Made by a program: the position numbers and the translations under genes. Positions 1,744-8,977 of a stretch of 19,723 nt of DNA are shown piece after piece (the first letter of the stretch is position 1; each line of letters opens with the position of its first letter). A model generated the notes under the pieces. The model saw nothing but the letters and a program-made list of their open reading frames with translations. It searched no databases and was not told the origin of the DNA. This DNA is from Prochloraceae cyanobacterium PL24a_bin.78 (GTDB taxonomy: Bacteria; Cyanobacteriota; Cyanobacteriia; Cyanobacteriales; JANQIW01): contig JANQIW010000050.1 of NCBI GenBank assembly GCA_028281945.1, positions 1 to 19,723 on the forward strand, in the 5' to 3' direction.

Positions 1744-2154
1744 GTGGATTATTACTATTTTAGGTTACAAATAATTATGGATAATATATTAGCAGATATT
1801 GCTCATTATCTTTTCCAAGGTGGCATTATGAAAATTGGAGGAGAAATAGTGCAATCTCTTTGGAATAAATTTTGGGAAAAGATAAAAGATATTCCTAATG
1901 TTGATAAAGCTTTGTCAAAAGCAAAGGAAACTAAGTCAGAAGAAGTTTTCAAAGAAAAAATGTTGCCCTATATACAAATAGCAATGGAGGATGAGGATTT
2001 TGCTAATGAGATAAAAGAATTAGTTAAAAAAATTAAAAGTGAAGGTTATATTAATATAACAGGAGATCAAAATAATACTGGATTAATCAATAGTGAGAGT
2101 TTAAAAGATATAAATCAAAGTACTATTACTATAGATAAGTCAATAAAAAAGTAA
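1744..2154 (+). CDS. Small helical protein of unknown family, probably the N-terminal module of the downstream STAND NTPase (see slippery site 2145-2151)
   Basis: The ORF is open from GTG 1744. Alternative starts are ATG 1777 and ATG 1828, the latter preceded by the SD-like AAGGTGG at 1817-1823. It has a hydrophobic first segment, a K/E-rich helical middle and an N/S/T-rich tail. It ends ATA AAA AAG TAA. Confidence 0.6.
   Translation: MDYYYFRLQIIMDNILADIAHYLFQGGIMKIGGEIVQSLWNKFWEKIKDIPNVDKALSKAKETKSEEVFKEKMLPYIQIAMEDEDFANEIKELVKKIKSEGYINITGDQNNTGLINSESLKDINQSTITIDKSIKK
2145..2151 (+). promoter_or_regulatory. A_AAA_AAG heptamer in phase with ORF 1744-2154, immediately before its TAA. It is either a candidate -1 ribosomal frameshift site or the site of a 1-nt homopolymer indel.
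   Basis: The zero-frame codons are AT[A] AAA AAG TAA (2143-2154). The -1 frame (AAA AAA GTA ATT ...) is open from 2139 and is the same frame as the NB-ARC ORF (2292). That frame has no ATG, GTG or TTG between 2139 and the TTG at 2292. Confidence 0.45.
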
Positions 2155-2291
2155 TTAATATCAATAATTGGGAGATAAAAAATGAATTATTAAAAGATAA
2201 AAGACAATGGCAAAATCTTTCTATTAGCTTAAAAACTACACCAATACCAGTAGACAACTGGGTAGGTAGAGAGAAAGAATGTAGCCAAATA

Positions 2292-4874
2292 TTGGAATGG
2301 CTTCAAGATAAGAATGTAAAAGCTATCGGCATATTTGGGTTAGGAGGCATAGGGAAGTCTTCATTAGCCGTTAGGATATACAATTCAGAGATTTCTATTC
2401 CTAAAGAAAACAGATTTTGGGTAGAAGTTACTGTGAAACCAGACTTTGCCGCATTTGCTAAGGGAATTATTGCAGGATTAGGAGGGAAGCCAACATCTGC
2501 TGGGAAGATAGAAGAATTAGTGAATGAATTGGTAGCCTTTCTTAGCAAGCAGCAGTATTTTTTAGTAGTCGATAATTTGGAAACCCTTTTAGACGAAAAG
2601 CGGCGGTGGTTGGATGAAGGTTATGGAGATTTTTTTCGAGAATGGTTTCAACGTGGTAGCAATAGCATTATTTTGGTGACTTCTAGAGAAAAGCCAATCT
2701 TGTTTGATGGGAAGAAAGCAAACAATTTTTGCCTTGAATTAGGAGGTATTGGGGTAGAAAATGGAGTGGAGTTGTTAGAAAAGGAAGGTATTTATGGTGA
2801 AAAGAAAGATTTACAGGAATTTTGCGAAGAAGTGAATAGTCATCCTCTTTGTTTAAAGTTGGTAGCATCTTTTTTAAGGGAATATTGTGATTGTGATTTT
2901 AACGAGATAAAAGAGTTACAGCAGGAGGAATTAGTATACGAAGAGGCTTATGGTTTGCATCGAAATAGAGAAAATGCTTGTTTATCTTGGAGTTTAAATC
3001 AGCATTTAGAGAATTTGGATACAGTTAGCAAAAGGTTTTTAGAGTTTTTGTGCGTGTATAGATTACCTTTTGATAGTGAAGCTGCTGGAGTAATGTTTGG
3101 TAAAATTGGTGATAATCTTGATAAGATTAAGCTTAAAAAAGCATTAGGTGGATTAGTAAATCGATCGTTATTAATGAAATTAGATGGTGGTAGCTTTGAG
3201 TTTTTGTCTTTGGTAAGGAATTTTGTCATCAGTAAGTCGGAAGATTTAAGAAATGCCCATGAATTAGCGATCGATTATTATCGTAAGTATTACCCTTTTA
3301 CTTCTGATAAAGCCATTACTGATGTGGATGGATATTTGGAGTTGTTTTACCATCATTGTCAGTTAGAAGGGTATGATTCTGCTTTTGATGTGATTGAGTA
3401 TTGTTATAGTTTTTTGTCATTAAGAGGTTATTACACTAAGATAGTTGAATCTTATGAGATTTTGTTAAAGGTTTGGGAAGAAAAAGATTTTAAAGATTTT
3501 AATGCAATTAGTAGATATGTATTTACTGTTAACTCTTTGGGAAATGCTTACGAATTCTTTGGAGAATATTATAAAGCAATTAAATTTCACCAACATAATT
3601 TAGAGATAAATGCAATTATAGATAATAATCAATGGGAAGCATCCTCTTTGAATAATTTGGGAAATGCTTACAAATTTCTGGGGAAATATAACAATGCTAT
3701 TCAATCTTATCAGAAGTCTTTAGAAATAAGTAGAGAAATAGGTAATCGAAAAGGTGAAGCTTCATTTTTGAATAATTTGGGAAATGCTTACAAATCTCTG
3801 GGGAAATATAACAATGCTATTGATTATATTGAAGAATCTTTAGAGATAAATAGAGAAATAGGTAATCAAAAAGGTGAAGCTAAAGCATTGGGTAATTTAG
3901 GAAATATTTTCCAACGTTTAGGAAAACATAGTGAAGCAATTAATTATCAACAAGAATCTTTAAAGATAAATAGAGAAATAGGTAATCGTGAAGGAGAAGT
4001 ATCCTCTTTGAATAATTTGGGAAATGCTTACAAATCTCAGGGGAAATATGAAAATGCTATTGAATCTTATCAAAAGTCTTTAGAAATAAGTAGAGAAATA
4101 AAATATTTTCAAGGAGAAATTAATTCATTAAATAATTTAGGCGATATTTTTCAGTGTCTAGGAAAATATAATAAAGCAATTGATTATTACCAAGCATCTT
4201 TAGAGATAAATAGAAGAATAGAATATCGTCAGGGGGAAGCAAATTCTTTATATAATTTAGGAAATACTTACCATTGTTTAGGAGAATATCAAAACGCTAT
4301 TGAATCTTATCAAGAATCTTTAAAGATAAAAAGAAAACTAGAAAATAGTAAAGAGTTAACTGATGTATTAGGTAATTTGGGAGTTGTTTATACCTGCTTG
4401 AAAGAATATCAAAAAGCAATTGAATCATACCAAGAGTCTTTAGAAATAAGTAGAAGAATTTGCTATTGTCAAGGAGAAGTTAATTCCTTGATAGGTTTGG
4501 GAGTTAATTATAATTTCTTGGGAAAAGATAAAGAAGCAATTGAATCATACCAAGAGTCTTTAGAAATAAGTAGAAGAATTGGCTATCATCAAGGAGAATC
4601 TATATCATTATATAATTTGGGATATTTATACTACTGGTTGCAAGAATATCAAAAAGCAATGAAATATTATTTAGAGGCTTTTGATATAAGTATAGAGATA
4701 GGAGATTATTTCAAAGTAGGAATTTGTTGTTTTTATCTAGGAGATATTTTCATCAAGTTAAATCAGAATACAGAGGCAAAAAAATATTATTTACAAGCAA
4801 GAGATTTGTTTAAGGCGATGGGATTATATAAAGATGTAGAAAAATGCAATCAAAAGATTGAGGAATTAAATTAG
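2292..4874 (+). CDS. STAND NTPase: NB-ARC domain + 10-11 TPR repeats (NLR-like). The true 5' end is probably upstream of 2292.
   Basis: Walker A GLGGIGKS (aa 16-23, nt 2337-2360). Walker B FLVVDN (aa 90-95, nt 2559-2576). ILVTSR is the RNBS-B/sensor-I-like motif and HPLCLKLV is GLPLA-like. From about aa 410 there are 40-aa TPR units (LNNLGNAYKSLGKYNNAIESYQKSLEISREIGNRKGEA). The track start is a TTG with no SD, only 15 residues before the P-loop, and the frame stays open upstream to 2139 (..PVDNWVGREKECSQILEWL). Confidence 0.9.
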   Translation: MEWLQDKNVKAIGIFGLGGIGKSSLAVRIYNSEISIPKENRFWVEVTVKPDFAAFAKGIIAGLGGKPTSAGKIEELVNELVAFLSKQQYFLVVDNLETLLDEKRRWLDEGYGDFFREWFQRGSNSIILVTSREKPILFDGKKANNFCLELGGIGVENGVELLEKEGIYGEKKDLQEFCEEVNSHPLCLKLVASFLREYCDCDFNEIKELQQEELVYEEAYGLHRNRENACLSWSLNQHLENLDTVSKRFLEFLCVYRLPFDSEAAGVMFGKIGDNLDKIKLKKALGGLVNRSLLMKLDGGSFEFLSLVRNFVISKSEDLRNAHELAIDYYRKYYPFTSDKAITDVDGYLELFYHHCQLEGYDSAFDVIEYCYSFLSLRGYYTKIVESYEILLKVWEEKDFKDFNAISRYVFTVNSLGNAYEFFGEYYKAIKFHQHNLEINAIIDNNQWEASSLNNLGNAYKFLGKYNNAIQSYQKSLEISREIGNRKGEASFLNNLGNAYKSLGKYNNAIDYIEESLEINREIGNQKGEAKALGNLGNIFQRLGKHSEAINYQQESLKINREIGNREGEVSSLNNLGNAYKSQGKYENAIESYQKSLEISREIKYFQGEINSLNNLGDIFQCLGKYNKAIDYYQASLEINRRIEYRQGEANSLYNLGNTYHCLGEYQNAIESYQESLKIKRKLENSKELTDVLGNLGVVYTCLKEYQKAIESYQESLEISRRICYCQGEVNSLIGLGVNYNFLGKDKEAIESYQESLEISRRIGYHQGESISLYNLGYLYYWLQEYQKAMKYYLEAFDISIEIGDYFKVGICCFYLGDIFIKLNQNTEAKKYYLQARDLFKAMGLYKDVEKCNQKIEELN
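3536..4650 (+). repeat. Intragenic 120-bp periodic repeat (TPR-coding units) with long near-identical stretches between units
   Basis: ttgaataatttgggaaatgcttacaaat[t/c]tc[t/a]ggggaaatat recurs at about 3651, 3771 and 4011. tctttagaaataagtagagaaata and tctttagagataaatagagaaata recur every 120 or 240 bp. caattgaatcataccaagagtctttagaaataagtagaagaatt recurs at about 4417 and 4537. Confidence 0.9.
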
Positions 4875-5161
4875 ATAACAATGCAAATATCTGCCATGAA
4901 AAATTCTTCTATTCCTACCTCGTAAGAGAAATTCAATAAAAGAAGGATATCCTCCTTGCAAGGTAAATTCTTTAGGAAAATCTTGCATTAGCTTATTACT
5001 GCTTAAAGAAATATATTAAAAAGCCATGGAAAATTATCAAAAAGATTTTTTAGAGAAATATACGATAGAAGAGGTATTTCCTTGCCTTAAAGAATAACTA
5101 AATTACGAAGAAATCTCTTCATTGCTAACAACGCTAACAAGTCTTTGGAAATTTATCAATT

Positions 5162-5295
5162 ATACCAAATCCAATTTTCTTTCCTTTACTTATTAAAAAA
5201 ACTGTTTTATCTCCTACTTTTTCCCAATCTTTGCGAATAGAGAATTGAGAATTCCACCTCGCCAATAAAGCTTGTTTCATAACCAGATTTAGTAT
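5162..5295. repeat. Copy A of a roughly 135-bp dispersed or direct repeat with imperfect inverted termini (MITE-like or segmental duplication)
   Basis: The copy starts ataccaaatccaatt, runs through tttcccaatctttgcgaatagagaat and gaattccacctcgccaataaagcttgtttcataacc, and ends agatttagtat. The ends are roughly reverse-complementary (ATACCAAATCC / GATTTAGTAT). It aligns by eye along its whole length with 5488-5660, and the similarity extends about 20 nt into both flanks. Confidence 0.7.
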
Positions 5296-5487
5296 TAGGA
5301 ATTAAATATCAGCAAAAAAATTACAAAAGAATCAACAAAACAAACCTAAATAGAGAATTCCCTTCCAAGAAAACATTTACAAGTATAGACAGAGAAATAG
5401 AGAGATATAGAAATAGAGAATCTCAAGAAGAAGTTGCTTCATAGCCAAATTTGGATTTCCTTATAACTTTTTGGAAAAATATTATTG

Positions 5488-5660
5488 ATACCAAATCCGA
5501 TTTTTTTTCCTTGACTTACTTAAAAATTATTTTATCTCTTACTATTTCCCAATCTTTGCGAATAGAGAATGGATAATGGATAATGGAAATGGATAATGGA
5601 TAATGGATAATGTAGAATTCCACCTCATCAATAAAGCTGTTTCATAACCGGATTTAGTAT
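5488..5660. repeat. Copy B of the same repeat, carrying an internal (GGATAAT)n microsatellite
   Basis: The copy starts ataccaaatccgatt, runs through tttcccaatctttgcgaatagagaat[GGATAAT array]gtagaattccacctcatcaataaagctgtttcataacc, and ends ggatttagtat. A partial third left end (gataccaaatctttttgc) lies at about 5703. Confidence 0.7.
5571..5611. repeat. Heptanucleotide microsatellite (GGATAAT)5 with one GGAAAT variant
   Basis: It reads ggataat ggataat ggaaat ggataat ggataat ggataat. It sits exactly where copy A has only 'tga' between agagaat and gaattcc. Confidence 0.95.
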
Positions 5661-5988
5661 GAGGTATTAAAAACTATCAAAAGTTTGTAGTAACAAATAG
5701 ATAGATACCAAATCTTTTTGCTTTATCAATTTAACTGCAAAATAAATCACAATTTTAATCAAGGAAATACCTTTCTCAAACTAAATTCCAAATTGTTGGC
5801 ATTGGTATTTTATTTACAAGCTAGGAAATTTAGGAAACAACAAGAATTGATAATAAGGTAGAGGAATAAAATTAAAGAGATTCAAAAATGAGATAAAGAA
5901 GCAAAGATTTTCTATCAAAGATTATTCCTTCCTTTTAGAGATATACAAGAAAACAAAATATCTCCCTCATCCCTAGATAAATTTTTTA

Positions 5989-6032
5989 GGGAATGTTGCT
6001 TTAGCTAATAGGGAATGTTGCTTTAGCTAATA
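5989..6032. repeat. Perfect 22-bp tandem duplication (gggaatgttgctttagctaata x2)
   Basis: 5989-6010 and 6011-6032 are identical. The unit encodes a TPR-like LGNVALAN fragment, and 22 bp is not a multiple of 3. Confidence 0.95.
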
Positions 6033-6061
6033 ACGACTTCCTAGAATAAAATATTAATAAA

Positions 6062-7282
6062 GTGTCGATTGAATATTATCAAAAGTATTTGCAAATGGAT
6101 AAACAGATAGAGAATCCCCAGGAAAAAAATTCCCAGCAAAAAGCAATCTTATTAACTAAATTGGGAAATAGTTACCTCTTGAAAGGAGAATATCAAAAGG
6201 CAATGGAATATCATCTCAACTCATTAGACATCAAAAGGGAATTAGGAAATTTAAAAGGAGAAGCTATTTCATTAGCAAATTTAGGTATTGTCTATAAATA
6301 TTTGGGAGATTATCAAACAGCCATCAAATATTACCTAGAAGTATTAACCATAAGTAGAAAAATACCCTTTCACCAAGGAGAAATAATTTCATTAGGGAAT
6401 TTGGGAAATGCTTACTTATCCCTCAAAAATTACCAAAAGGCAATCGAATATTACCAACAGCTTTTAATCATTACTATAAAAAGAGGAAATCTACAAGCAG
6501 AAGCAATCGCATTATGTAATTTAGGTGTTGCTTTCCACTGCTTAGGGGAATATCAAAAAGCAATTCAATATTATCAAGAGGATTTAAATATTTGTCGAAA
6601 AATAGAAAATTCTCGAGGAGTTGCAATGGCATCAAGAAATTTAGGAGTTACTTACCACTCCTTGGGAGAATACCAAAAGGCAATTCAATATTACCAAGAG
6701 GATTTAGATATTTGTAGACAAATGGAAAATCACCAAAGAGAAGCAACGGCATTAGGAAATTTAGGTGTAGTTTACAATTCTGTTGGAGATTATCACAAAG
6801 CAATAGAATATCATCTCCAATCTCTAGAAATCAAAAAGAAGATTGGTTGTCGCCAAGGTGAAGCTTCATCATTAGGAGGTTTGGGAAATGCTTATTATTC
6901 CTTGGGAAAATTTCAAAAAGCAATAGAATATCACCTCCAATCTCTAGAAATCAAAAAGGAGATTAGTTGCCGTCTTGGAGTAGCTGCTTCATTAGGAGGC
7001 TTGGGAAATGTCTATTATTCCTTGGGAAAATTTCACAAAGCAATCCAGTTTTACCAACAGGTTTTTGAAATAAGCATAGAAATCCAATATCCTTTAGGGA
7101 TTGCAACTTCTTGTTTCAATTTAGGAAATTCTTTTGAAAAACTCAATTGCCAATCTCAAGCCAAAAAGTTTTTTTTACAGGCAAGGAAATTTTATCGCAA
7201 GATAAATTTGGATAAGAAGGTAGAGAATTGTGATAGTAAAATTGGCAAATTTAGAGAAGGAAAACATTTAAACACAAAATAA
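6062..7282 (+). CDS. TPR-repeat protein (9 units), paralogous to the sensor half of the NB-ARC-TPR gene and likely N-terminally truncated
   Basis: 406-aa ORF with a GTG start and no SD. It begins inside a TPR unit (SIEYYQKYL matches the AIEYYQ consensus), and TPR-like coding remnants continue upstream across stops (FLLEIYKKTKYLPHP*INFLGNVALAN). The units resemble LGNLGVVYNSVGDYHKAIEYHLQSLEIKKKIGCRQGEASS. The C-terminal cap is homologous to the end of ORF 2292-4874. Confidence 0.8.
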   Translation: MSIEYYQKYLQMDKQIENPQEKNSQQKAILLTKLGNSYLLKGEYQKAMEYHLNSLDIKRELGNLKGEAISLANLGIVYKYLGDYQTAIKYYLEVLTISRKIPFHQGEIISLGNLGNAYLSLKNYQKAIEYYQQLLIITIKRGNLQAEAIALCNLGVAFHCLGEYQKAIQYYQEDLNICRKIENSRGVAMASRNLGVTYHSLGEYQKAIQYYQEDLDICRQMENHQREATALGNLGVVYNSVGDYHKAIEYHLQSLEIKKKIGCRQGEASSLGGLGNAYYSLGKFQKAIEYHLQSLEIKKEISCRLGVAASLGGLGNVYYSLGKFHKAIQFYQQVFEISIEIQYPLGIATSCFNLGNSFEKLNCQSQAKKFFLQARKFYRKINLDKKVENCDSKIGKFREGKHLNTK

Positions 7283-7372
7283 AATTTAAACATAAATTCT
7301 TAAATCTAGTTAATCCTGTTAAAATCAAACCAAAAATATACCATCAATTAACTATTAAAAAATTTTCAAATC

Positions 7373-8977
7373 ATGAAACATATCACCTCAATACTAGGTA
7401 TTGCCATAACAGGAATCCCAATAATTGTATATGCAATGCCAGATGTTAGCAAAATTGCCCAAGAAATTACAGTCAGAATTGACGGAGTTAGTAGTGGCAG
7501 CGGTGTAATAATTCAAAAAAAAGGAGAAACTTACTATATACTCACCAATACCCACGTAATAGATAAAGTTGGAGAATACCAAGTAACTACTTCCGATGGT
7601 AAAACTCACCAAATAGATGAACAAAAGATTATAAAATTACCAAATTTAGATATTGCTATACTAACTTTCACTAGTGATTTACCCTATCCCACAGTAAAAA
7701 TAGCAAATCCAGATGCCATAAACCGAGGAGAAAAAATTCATGTAAGCGGTTGGGCACGCTCGGGAGGTAGTTTAAGACAAAGAATTTATATTAAAACAGA
7801 AGGAATCCTCACAGATACCGATTCCCAACTCCCACTAGGTAACTCATTAAGCTATACAAATTTAGTAAGAGCAGGTATGAGTGGTGGTCCAATTCTCAAT
7901 AATAAAGGACAACTAATCGGAATTAATGCTTTAGTAAGGCTAGAGCAAAATTCAGATAATATAGTATCTTCTGGAATTAGTATCAATAAAATTATGACAT
8001 GGCTAGAAGAATACGCCATAATAGAAATAAATTCAAATAGCCAAAATGCAAATAACCCACAAACAAGGCCTACTATTAACACATCAAATAACAATTATAC
8101 CTTAACCAATACCCTACAAGCCCAAGGAAGAAGCGTCAATACTCTTGCCTTAAAAGATTCCATCTTAGCAAGTGGCCAAAGTAATGGTAGTATTTCCCTC
8201 TGGAATATCACCAGTCAATCTCCCATAAAAACCTGGAAAGCCCATTCACAAGGCATTAACGCCTTAGCCATTAGCCCAAATGGAGAATATCTTGTTAGTG
8301 GCAGTGATGATAATCTCATTAAAATTTGGGATTTATCCACAGGAAAATTATTCAAAACCTTAAAAGGCCACCAAGATTCAGTCACAAGTCTTGCTTTTAC
8401 TCCAGACGGAGAAACCATTGCCAGCGGGAGTTGGGATAAAACCATTAAGCTTTGGAATATCCAAACAGGGGAGATAATACATTCATTAGAAAAACATTCA
8501 GGGTTAATTAATACCATTTTTATTAGTAATGATGGTAAATTTTTAGCTAGTGGTTCAGCCGATACAAATATTTATTTATGGGATATTCAATCAGGAGAAG
8601 TGATTAATACCTTAAAAGGACATAGTTTATCCGTCTTATCTATGGTAATGACCACTGATAATCAGACATTAGTTAGTAGCGATGGCAACGGTCTCATTCA
8701 TATTTGGAATCTTCAGACAGGTAAAGTTACTAACATTTTAGAAGGCCATTTAGATGGAGTATGGTCTTTAATTGTAACCTCCGATGGTAAAACCTTAATT
8801 AGTAGTAGTTGGGATAAAACTATTAAGTTTTGGGATATTTCTAATGCTAAATTAAGGTATACTTTAAAAGAACATTCAGATTATGTTGTGACTCTTGCTT
8901 TGAGTCAAGATGATACAACCTTGGTTAGTGGGGATTGGAATTCTCAAATTAAGATTTGGCAAATCTTGTCAAATTAA
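7373..8977 (+). CDS. Trypsin-fold (S1/Trypsin_2-like) serine protease fused to a 7-bladed WD40 propeller, with an N-terminal hydrophobic signal or anchor
   Basis: The catalytic triad is intact: His61 (ILTNTHVI, cac 7553-7555), Asp93 (NLDIAILTF, gat 7649-7651) and Ser170 (GMSGGPIL, agt 7880-7882). The N-terminus reads MKHITSILGIAITGIPIIVYA. An N/Q/T-rich linker is followed by 7 WD40 units from about aa 245 (for example GHQDSVTSLAFTPDGETIASGSWDKTIKLWNIQTGE). Confidence 0.9.
   Translation: MKHITSILGIAITGIPIIVYAMPDVSKIAQEITVRIDGVSSGSGVIIQKKGETYYILTNTHVIDKVGEYQVTTSDGKTHQIDEQKIIKLPNLDIAILTFTSDLPYPTVKIANPDAINRGEKIHVSGWARSGGSLRQRIYIKTEGILTDTDSQLPLGNSLSYTNLVRAGMSGGPILNNKGQLIGINALVRLEQNSDNIVSSGISINKIMTWLEEYAIIEINSNSQNANNPQTRPTINTSNNNYTLTNTLQAQGRSVNTLALKDSILASGQSNGSISLWNITSQSPIKTWKAHSQGINALAISPNGEYLVSGSDDNLIKIWDLSTGKLFKTLKGHQDSVTSLAFTPDGETIASGSWDKTIKLWNIQTGEIIHSLEKHSGLINTIFISNDGKFLASGSADTNIYLWDIQSGEVINTLKGHSLSVLSMVMTTDNQTLVSSDGNGLIHIWNLQTGKVTNILEGHLDGVWSLIVTSDGKTLISSSWDKTIKFWDISNAKLRYTLKEHSDYVVTLALSQDDTTLVSGDWNSQIKIWQILSN

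What the first reader, a model, noticed from the sequence alone, without database searches (positions are those of the whole stretch)
4875..7282. Tandem partial copies of the sensor half downstream of the NTPase: decay products or a silent cassette reservoir?
Seen: the 1.2-kb stretch with no ORF calls after the NTPase still translates, across stops and frameshifts, into TPR-like sequence. The distinctive C-terminal cap occurs three times in the same orientation. Copy 1 is YYLQARDLFKAMGLYKDVEKCNQKIEEL (about 4786-4868). Copy 2 is FYLQARKFRKQQELII/NKVEE (5778-5869, frameshifted). Copy 3 is FFLQARKFYRKINLDKKVENCDSKI (about 7165-7240). ORF 6062-7282 starts at an SD-less GTG inside a TPR unit, with a stop 5 codons upstream and recognisable TPR coding before that. 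Identical 15-20-mers are shared with the NTPase TPRs (ttgggaaatgcttac, gaatatcaaaaagcaatt). Inference: the 3' sensor segment was duplicated at least twice, and no second NB-ARC remnant is visible. These copies may be simple decay products. More speculatively, promoterless TPR cassettes could serve as donors for gene conversion into the expressed sensor, analogous to pilS or vls antigenic-variation cassettes.
Basis: partly seen in the sequence, partly recalled or inferred. Interest (0 to 1): 0.6.

Follow-up and report, generated by a model that had tools for sequence, protein, structure and literature searches.

The report
Decayed and surviving TPR sensor duplicates
Behind a cyanobacterial NLR-like immune-sensor gene lie two old tandem copies of its repeat "sensor" tail, one wrecked and invaded by a small mobile element and one still an intact TPR-only gene, and nothing suggests they feed sequence back into the main gene.

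Summary
The C-terminal "cap" of the NB-ARC/TPR gene (frame 2139-4874) occurs three times in one orientation, and TPR remnants lie between the copies.

About 300 nt of the "ORF-free" stretch is not TPR. It is two copies of a dispersed MITE, each splitting a TPR unit at the same position.

The key new result is a junction match. The segment 4784-5048 (cap end, stop, flank, first unit) aligns collinearly with 5807-6090 at 76% identity, far above shuffles. The locus is therefore a tandem amplification of one module, flank-TPR array-cap.

- **Copy R (4944-5890)** is dead.
- **Copy B (ORF 6062-7282)** has lost its first unit to two stops and a perfect 22-nt duplication. Its remaining 406 codons are open, match the TPR profile strongly, and show dN/dS of about 0.3. 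It is probably a live TPR-only gene.

The silent-cassette idea finds no support:
- A and B units are 62% identical, with third codon positions near saturation.
- That is no closer than A is to an unlinked paralogue.
- The longest shared word is 18 nt for A-B and 23 nt for A and that paralogue.

This is an ordinary case of gene-family turnover. No orthologue, RNA data or strain comparison was available.

The parts
2139..4874 (+). Gene A: NB-ARC plus 10 TPR units (120 nt each, from 3510) plus a C-terminal cap unit (4710-4871). It is the intact upstream reference copy.
4875..4943 (+). Junction flank J1, the non-coding stretch after A's stop. It is homologous to the stretch after the R cap.
   Evidence: 70% identity to J2 and 41-49% to the flank after B. 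Local alignment score 33 against a null maximum of 27.
4944..5079 (+). r1, the first TPR unit of dead copy R. It has two frameshifts and a stop, and is homologous to the pre-B unit.
   Evidence: nhmmer E 1.6e-6. tblastn pieces. Junction alignment.
5080..5161 (+). Left half of r2. It is not significant on its own and is placed by collinearity and by likeness to the left flank of MITE b.
   Evidence: (families D8, D9).
5162..5295 (.). MITE copy a. It has terminal inverted repeats (ATACCAAATCC... / ...GGATTTAGTAT) and no ORF.
   Evidence: At least 25 dispersed copies in the genome. Alignment of 15 copies.
5296..5351 (+). Right half of r2, a weak match to unit profile positions 69-106.
   Evidence: E above 1; collinear only.
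5424..5487 (+). Left half of r3, matching unit profile positions 1-61.
   Evidence: nhmmer E 2.4e-5 and E 3e-4 with a profile built without B.
5488..5660 (.). MITE copy b. It is 84-89% identical to copy a and carries an (AATGGAT)n array at 5568-5612. It splits r3 between profile positions 61 and 69.
5661..5716 (+). Right half of r3, matching unit profile positions 69-119 weakly.
   Evidence: E 0.13 to 2.3; collinear with the left half.
5733..5890 (+). Cap remnant of copy R, with one frameshift and two in-frame stops.
   Evidence: tblastn E 1.4e-6 against B's cap. Three-way alignment.
5891..5965 (+). Junction flank J2, the second copy of J1.
5966..6061 (+). Pre-B unit, the former first unit of copy B. 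It is disabled by TAG 5974-5976, a perfect 22-nt tandem duplication at 5987-6030 that shifts the frame by one base, and TAA 6047-6049.
   Evidence: (D16). Homology to r1 (score 97 with one 22-mer copy removed, null maximum 34).
6062..7282 (+). ORF B, 406 codons: a half unit, 8 TPR units and a cap. It is TPR-only. The start could be GTG 6062 or ATG 6095.

Best explanation
The stretch is the product of tandem amplification of one module, made of a short flank, a TPR array and the family-specific C-terminal cap. The module derives from the 3' sensor half of a Bell/NB-ARC/TPR (bacterial NLR-like) gene.

**How it arose (inferred).** A first partial duplication placed a headless TPR array about 70 nt behind gene A's stop. 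A later unequal exchange between the repeated parts added a further copy with the same junction.

**What happened to each copy.**
- The middle copy, R, died. It shrank to three units plus the cap, collected frameshifts and stops, and holds a MITE at the same position in two of its units.
- The distal copy, B, lost its first unit and its original start. The remaining 406 codons have been kept by purifying selection. B is therefore most likely made as a free TPR-only protein from GTG 6062 or ATG 6095.

**Shown:** the repeated junction, the lesions, the MITEs, the lack of A-B exchange, and the constraint on B.

**Inferred:** the order of events, expression of B, and any role for B. A role as a sensor-domain-only partner or competitor of the NLR is a guess.
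For: - **Repeated junction.** 4784-5048 aligns collinearly with 5807-6090. There are 188 matches in 246 aligned pairs. The score is 79, or 97 with one 22-mer copy removed, against null maxima of 34-36.
- **Flank.** The non-coding flank after R's cap is 70% identical to that after A's cap but only 49% to that after B's cap.
- **Caps.** All three caps are homologous.
- **R remnants.** They are significant and collinear.
- **MITE.** It splits unit r3 between profile positions 61 and 69. The family has at least 25 genomic copies with inverted ends.
- **No NB-ARC remnant**.
- **No exchange with A.** A-B units average 62% nt identity (maximum 73). A against the unlinked paralogue C129 averages 66% (maximum 75). 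Third positions of A-B are 52% identical and dS is 1.4-1.9.
- **Constraint on B.** Its units score 43-68 bits against a profile of A and C129 units, while R scores 18 or less. dN/dS is 0.28-0.37 at dS 0.5-0.95 between B's internal duplicates. Neutral divergence of 0.1-0.25 per site would leave the ORF open with P of 9e-5 to 7e-11. The R/B flanks differ by about 0.3 per site.
- **Assembly.** Confirmed by an independent contig.
Against: - No RNA, protein or strain data exist for this organism. Only the source sample holds the sequence.
- No promoter-like site stands out before B. The scan found 13 sites against 12.9 expected in shuffles.
- No Shine-Dalgarno sequence precedes either candidate start.
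- No orthologue of B was found. The best matches are 36-56% identical generic TPR proteins, nearly all with an extra N-terminal domain. Constraint therefore rests on within-gene comparisons of 40-codon units, which are noisy.
- B could have been part of a longer live gene until recently.
- R's cap is equidistant from A's and B's caps, so the order of the duplications is not resolved.
Confidence: 0.72

Rival explanations
1. Everything downstream of gene A is junk. B is a recently orphaned fragment with no function, and its open frame is a leftover from a longer gene that died only lately.
For: - B has no recognisable promoter or ribosome-binding site (sequence).
- Its former first unit carries three lesions, one of them a perfect and therefore recent 22-nt duplication.
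- No orthologue was found.
- A downstream TPR-only ORF is not a conserved feature of 20 homologous NLR loci.
Against: - All three disabling lesions fall in the first 170 nt or so of a former frame of about 1390 nt. By my own arithmetic that has a chance of about 0.002 if lesions fell at random.
- The pre-B unit no longer matches the TPR profile, while every B unit scores 43-68 bits.
- The flanks duplicated together with B have diverged about 30%. At that level an unselected 406-codon frame would be closed.
- dN/dS inside B is about 0.3.
Confidence: 0.2
2. Silent-cassette reservoir. R and B are promoterless donors that convert TPR units of the expressed gene A, as pilS does for pilE or the vls cassettes for vlsE.
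For: - Partial copies lie in the same orientation directly downstream of the full gene, without NB-ARC.
- 18-nt words are shared between A and B.
- Repeat exchange between NLR paralogues, including pseudogenes, is reported in Podospora (PMC13449251).
Against: - No A unit is more than 73% identical to any B unit. The A-B mean of 62% is no higher than A against a paralogue on another contig.
- The longest identical word is 18 nt for A-B but 23 nt for A and the unlinked paralogue. There are 12 shared words of 15 nt or more for A-B against 26 for that paralogue.
- Third codon positions are near saturation.
- R is riddled with stops and holds two MITEs, so it is not kept as a usable donor.
- Homogenisation is visible within each gene but not between them.
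- The only A-to-B joints in contigs have sides of 23-28 nt at shared motifs, below the tool's own criterion.
Confidence: 0.03
3. Three complete tandem NLR genes once stood here, and independent deletions removed the NB-ARC halves of the second and third.
For: The family is multi-copy in this genome, with a full paralogue on C129 that has the same upstream ORF. NLR genes often sit in tandem arrays (general knowledge).
Against: - Both junctions have the same structure and are homologous to each other across the cap end, about 70 nt of flank and the first unit. Two independent deletions would not recreate this.
- No NB-ARC or linker remnant was found.
Confidence: 0.05

Closest known systems
Bacterial NLR-like NB-ARC/TPR proteins of filamentous cyanobacteria and actinobacteria, paired with Bell-domain genes (Dyrka et al., bioRxiv 10.1101/2020.01.06.895854)
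   Same: Gene A has NB-ARC followed by a regular 40-aa TPR_12 array with partly high internal repeat conservation. The same C-terminal cap motif is found in homologues.
   Different: That work describes whole genes. The headless TPR-plus-cap copies behind the gene are not part of the described architecture. They were absent from 17 of 20 homologous loci examined. Two of the other three were artefacts of masked bases, and one holds only a separate TPR stretch 5.8 kb downstream.
Repeat shuffling and intergenic repeat exchange among fungal NLRs with highly conserved internal repeats, the Podospora NWD/HNWD family (PMC13449251; PMC4986451)
   Same: Both involve sensor arrays made of near-identical units, pseudogenised paralogues nearby, and the idea that repeats of dead copies can be exchanged with live genes.
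   Different: In Podospora, identical repeats are shared between paralogues. Here the best A-B unit pair is 73% identical, and homogenisation is confined within each gene.
Silent-cassette variation systems: Neisseria pilE/pilS and Borrelia vlsE/vls (from general knowledge)
   Same: One full gene is followed by promoterless-looking partial copies of its variable part in the same orientation.
   Different: Those donors share long, nearly identical framework segments with the expression site, are kept free of junk, and yield mosaics. None of this is seen here.
Tandem segmental duplication and amplification followed by pseudogene decay and MITE invasion (general bacterial genome dynamics)
   Same: The locus shows a repeated junction, collinear copies, graded decay and a mobile-element insertion inside a copy.
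   Different: Nothing essential differs. The one unusual point is that a headless copy appears to have stayed under selection.

Membership tests
Silent-cassette gene-conversion system (pilS/vls type) | Partial, promoterless copies of the variable region lie near one expressed full-length gene | tested here: inconclusive
   Two headless copies lie downstream in the same orientation. Promoter status is unknown, because the scan equals chance and no RNA run exists.
Silent-cassette gene-conversion system (pilS/vls type) | Long, nearly identical segments are shared by donors and the expression site to support homologous recombination | tested here: not met
   Mean unit identity is 62% and the maximum 73%. 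The longest identical word is 18 nt, shorter than the 23 nt shared with an unlinked paralogue.
Silent-cassette gene-conversion system (pilS/vls type) | Mosaic variants of the expressed gene occur in populations | not testable with these tools
   Only contigs of the single source sample hold the locus. No variant contig bridges A and B with 31 nt or more on both sides.
Silent-cassette gene-conversion system (pilS/vls type) | Donor cassettes are maintained rather than decayed | tested here: not met
   R has 19-30 stops per frame, frameshifts and two MITE copies. Only B is intact.
NLR repeat arrays with intergenic repeat exchange (fungal HIC NLR type) | Identical or near-identical repeat units are shared between different loci | tested here: not met
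   The best partner of nearly every unit lies in its own gene. Cross-gene maxima are 73-75%.
TPR_12-type tetratricopeptide repeat protein | The Pfam TPR_12 model is matched above its gathering score | tested here: met
   B scores 321 bits against a cut-off of 30.1, in 7 stretches.
Tandem segmental duplicate | Collinear homology extends across the non-coding junction, beyond chance | tested here: met
   Score 79-97 against null maxima of 34-36, with 76% identity over 246 pairs. The flank alone is 70% identical, against a background of 41-49%.
MITE (miniature inverted-repeat element) | Small size, no ORF, terminal inverted repeats and many dispersed copies | tested here: met
   The copies are 134 and 173 nt long. 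The ends are inverted repeats of about 15 nt. At least 25 copies lie on other contigs. A target-site duplication (possibly TA) was not established.

The most novel reading that the evidence does not exclude
B is a selected sensor-domain-only paralogue. As a free TPR array born from an NLR's ligand-binding half, it would bind the same class of ligand, or the NLR itself, and tune or buffer activation of the Bell/NB-ARC/TPR death switch. This would resemble CARD-only or pyrin-only regulators in animals. Over evolutionary time it might also serve as a rare source of new repeat units.
Probability: 0.1. Interest if true: 0.5.

Novelty: new member of a known kind. Interest (0 to 1): 0.2.

Why it matters
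The result removes a tempting but unsupported reading, antigenic-variation-like cassettes in a bacterial NLR locus. It replaces that reading with a documented history: a repeated junction proves tandem amplification of the sensor tail, one copy was caught in decay with a MITE inside, and one headless copy was apparently kept by selection.

For bacterial NLR biology, the only point worth a follow-up is whether a TPR-only offshoot is expressed and interacts with its parent sensor. Otherwise this is ordinary gene-family turnover in a single metagenome-assembled genome.

Tried and rejected
- **RNA and population data.** No RNA holder is listed. Only the source coral-metagenome sample holds the stretch, and only as contigs. 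The laid contigs gave no usable variants. The A-to-B "joints" have sides of 20-28 nt at shared motifs and were disregarded.
- **Promoter and terminator scan.** Counts equal the shuffles.
- **Rfam.** Nothing was found in 4500-7500.
- **Synteny and orthologues.**
  - The genome has no relative closer than order level, and DNA search found only the MITE and the heptamer array elsewhere.
  - Protein search found only generic TPR proteins at 56% identity or less.
  - The metagenome scan gave a best identity of 42%.
- **Linker remnant.** A profile of the NB-ARC-to-TPR linker from 18 homologues found nothing upstream of B. The scores of 2.4-4.9 bits lie below the null top of 7.1. I therefore dropped the idea that B starts at the true first unit of an NLR array.
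- **Hybrid cap.** I tested whether R's cap is 5' B-like and 3' A-like, which would pin down an unequal crossover.
- **Affiliation of r1-r3.** No clear assignment to A, B or C129 units emerged.
- **Earlier scan notes.** A word search returned nothing relevant.
Full report
**Setting.** The window is nearly a whole contig (C108, 19,877 nt) of a 4.6-Mb, 176-contig cyanobacterial genome assembled from a coral metagenome. Frame 2139-4874 encodes an NB-ARC domain followed by TPR_12 repeats. ORF 6062-7282 matches TPR families only. Both are built of exact 40-aa/120-nt units. Gene A has ten units plus a distinct C-terminal cap unit. B has a half unit, eight units and a cap. The closest paralogue, on contig C129, has thirteen units plus a cap.

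**Checking the observation.**
- The three cap copies are real.
  - A's cap ends the gene at about 4785-4868, and B's lies at about 7169-7243.
  - The middle one, at 5754-5890, matches B's cap at 53% over 32 aa (E 1.4e-6) and A's at 37% (E 5e-4).
  - The middle copy continues after one frameshift through two stops.
- A nucleotide profile of the 120-nt units finds two significant remnants in the ORF-free stretch.
  - These are 4966-5056 (18.4 bits, E 1.6e-6) and 5424-5482 (14.6 bits, E 2.4e-5).
  - The best of 200 shuffles scores 5.6 bits.
  - Further pieces at 5297-5317 and 5666-5715 are collinear but not significant alone.
- The two quoted words are true 18-mers shared by A and B.
- No NB-ARC remnant lies outside gene A.
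- A 15-kb contig from an independent assembly of the source sample covers 4551-7400 without a single difference.

Positions 5162-5295 and 5488-5660 are two copies of a small dispersed element. It has inverted ends of about 15 nt, a variable tandem-repeat core and at least 25 copies on other contigs, so it is a MITE. Copy b splits unit r3 cleanly. Profile positions 1-61 lie just before it and 69-119 just after. Copy a sits at the same unit position, and the flanks of the two copies resemble each other. Either a unit that already held the MITE was duplicated, or the element hit the same motif twice. About 300 of the 1187 "TPR-like" bases are therefore mobile-element sequence.

**The repeated junction.** The end of A's cap, its stop codon, about 70 nt of non-coding flank and remnant r1 (4784-5048) align collinearly with a second stretch, 5807-6090. 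That stretch holds the end of R's cap, the flank behind it, the stretch just upstream of ORF B and B's first codons.
- There are 188 matches in 246 aligned pairs.
- The score is 79, or 97 if one copy of a perfect 22-nt tandem duplication is removed, against 34-36 for the best of 300 shuffles.
- In the purely non-coding flank, R and A are 70% identical. Either one compared with the flank behind B gives 41-49%, which is background.

The locus is therefore a tandem array of one module (flank, TPR array, cap) with the same junction twice. That is the signature of a partial tandem duplication followed by unequal exchange. It is not the signature of independent deletions in three full genes.

The alignment also shows that the stretch just before ORF B (5966-6061) was once B's first unit, homologous to r1. 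That unit now carries TAG 5974-5976, the 22-nt duplication at 5987-6030 (a one-base frame shift) and TAA 6047-6049.

**Is there exchange with gene A?** No sign of it was found.
- Unit by unit, A-B nucleotide identity averages 62% (maximum 73%).
- A against the unlinked paralogue C129 averages 66% (maximum 75%), and B against C129 averages 63%.
- Third codon positions of A-B are 52% identical, and dS over the last five units is 1.4-1.9, close to saturation.
- Homogenisation is obvious within genes. It reaches 86% in A, 80% in B and 91% in C129, with identical tracts of 47, 24 and 74 nt. It is not seen between genes.
- The longest word shared by A and B is 18 nt. A shares a 23-mer with C129, and twice as many words of 15 nt or more.
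- The shared words encode the conserved LGNAY and EYQKAI motifs.
- R shares nothing longer than 14 nt with A.

Real donor cassettes need long, near-identical framework segments, and these copies have none.

**Is B alive?**
- With a profile built only from A and C129 units, every B unit scores 43-68 bits. The half unit at 6058-6111 scores 9, the pre-B unit scores nothing, and R scores 18 at most.
- B's internal duplicates (units 4/5, 6/7 and 7/8) have dS of 0.5-0.95 and dN/dS of 0.28-0.37.
- B's codons are rich in one-step neighbours of stop codons. Neutral divergence of 0.05 per site would leave the frame open with P of 0.009. At 0.1-0.25 per site, P falls to 9e-5 down to 7e-11.
- The flank duplicated together with B has diverged about 30% from its sister.
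- All three disabling lesions sit in the first 170 nt or so of a former frame of about 1390 nt. By my own arithmetic this has a chance of roughly 0.002 if lesions fell at random.

I therefore think the 406-codon frame has been kept by selection and is translated from GTG 6062 or ATG 6095. Against this, no promoter-like site stands out, there is no Shine-Dalgarno sequence, and neither RNA data nor an orthologue exists. The nearest database proteins are 36-56% identical TPR proteins, almost all carrying an extra N-terminal domain, so a bare TPR array with this cap is atypical.

**Comparative context.**
- In this genome, only A, B and the C129 gene belong to this TPR subfamily. The C129 gene has no TPR sequence behind it.
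- Among 20 homologous NB-ARC/TPR loci from the same order, 17 show no TPR-like sequence after the gene's stop within about 6 kb.
- Two apparent extensions are artefacts of masked bases.
- One locus (L061) has a separate TPR-like stretch about 5.8 kb downstream, probably another gene, which I did not examine.
- One locus (L070) has a second, roughly 85% identical copy of the cap about 1 kb downstream, beyond an inserted block of small ORFs.

Tail duplicates therefore recur sporadically but are not a conserved part of the system.

**Comparison with the known.** NB-ARC/TPR proteins with internally conserved repeats next to Bell-domain genes are described for filamentous cyanobacteria (bioRxiv 10.1101/2020.01.06.895854). 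In Podospora, NLR repeat arrays exchange units between paralogues, and repeats of pseudogenes stay intact (PMC13449251; PMC4986451). Its hallmark is identical units shared across loci, which I tested here and did not find.

**Verdict.** This is an ordinary case of partial tandem duplication, decay and MITE invasion beside a bacterial NLR-like gene, with one headless copy that probably survives as a TPR-only gene. The cassette-reservoir reading is not supported.

Noticed in passing
window 1744-2295; G000:C129 (minus strand, upstream of the 1040-aa open frame): The NB-ARC frame has no ATG, GTG or TTG before 2292. It lies -1 relative to the upstream 136-aa ORF, which ends ...A AAA AAG TGA. The C129 paralogue has the same layout, with T TTC CCA AAG in the overlap. 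This is a candidate programmed -1 frameshift. An earlier report of this scan (e1-3766950) already covers it.
   Followed up: partly
window 5162-5295 and 5488-5660; also C108:19777-19841 and at least 25 places on other contigs: A MITE family with ends ATACCAAATCCGGTT / AACCGGATTTAGTAT. Its core is a variable array of short tandem repeats: GAATTCC, a motif of about 31 nt, or AATGGAT here.
   Followed up: partly
window 5987-6030: A perfect 22-nt tandem duplication. It is evidently recent and shifts the frame of the former first unit of ORF B.
   Followed up: yes
G000:C129, TPR array of the paralogue (reverse-complement coordinates 24562-26334): The repeats are very highly conserved internally. 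Units are up to 91% identical in nucleotides, with identical tracts up to 74 nt. In gene A, the youngest unit pairs have dN/dS of about 1.0-1.5, as expected for a diversifying sensor.
   Followed up: partly
L070 (G370:C50:12840-23400), about 5283-5560: A distant homologue has a second copy of its C-terminal cap, about 85% identical and with an in-frame stop. It lies roughly 1 kb behind the gene, beyond a block of small ORFs, one of them PIN-like. This is another case of a duplicated NLR tail.
   Followed up: no
window 3670-4563: The independent assembly breaks into pieces of 133-435 nt inside gene A's TPR array. The unit count of A in this MAG therefore rests on short-read assembly of near-identical repeats and could be off.
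   Followed up: no
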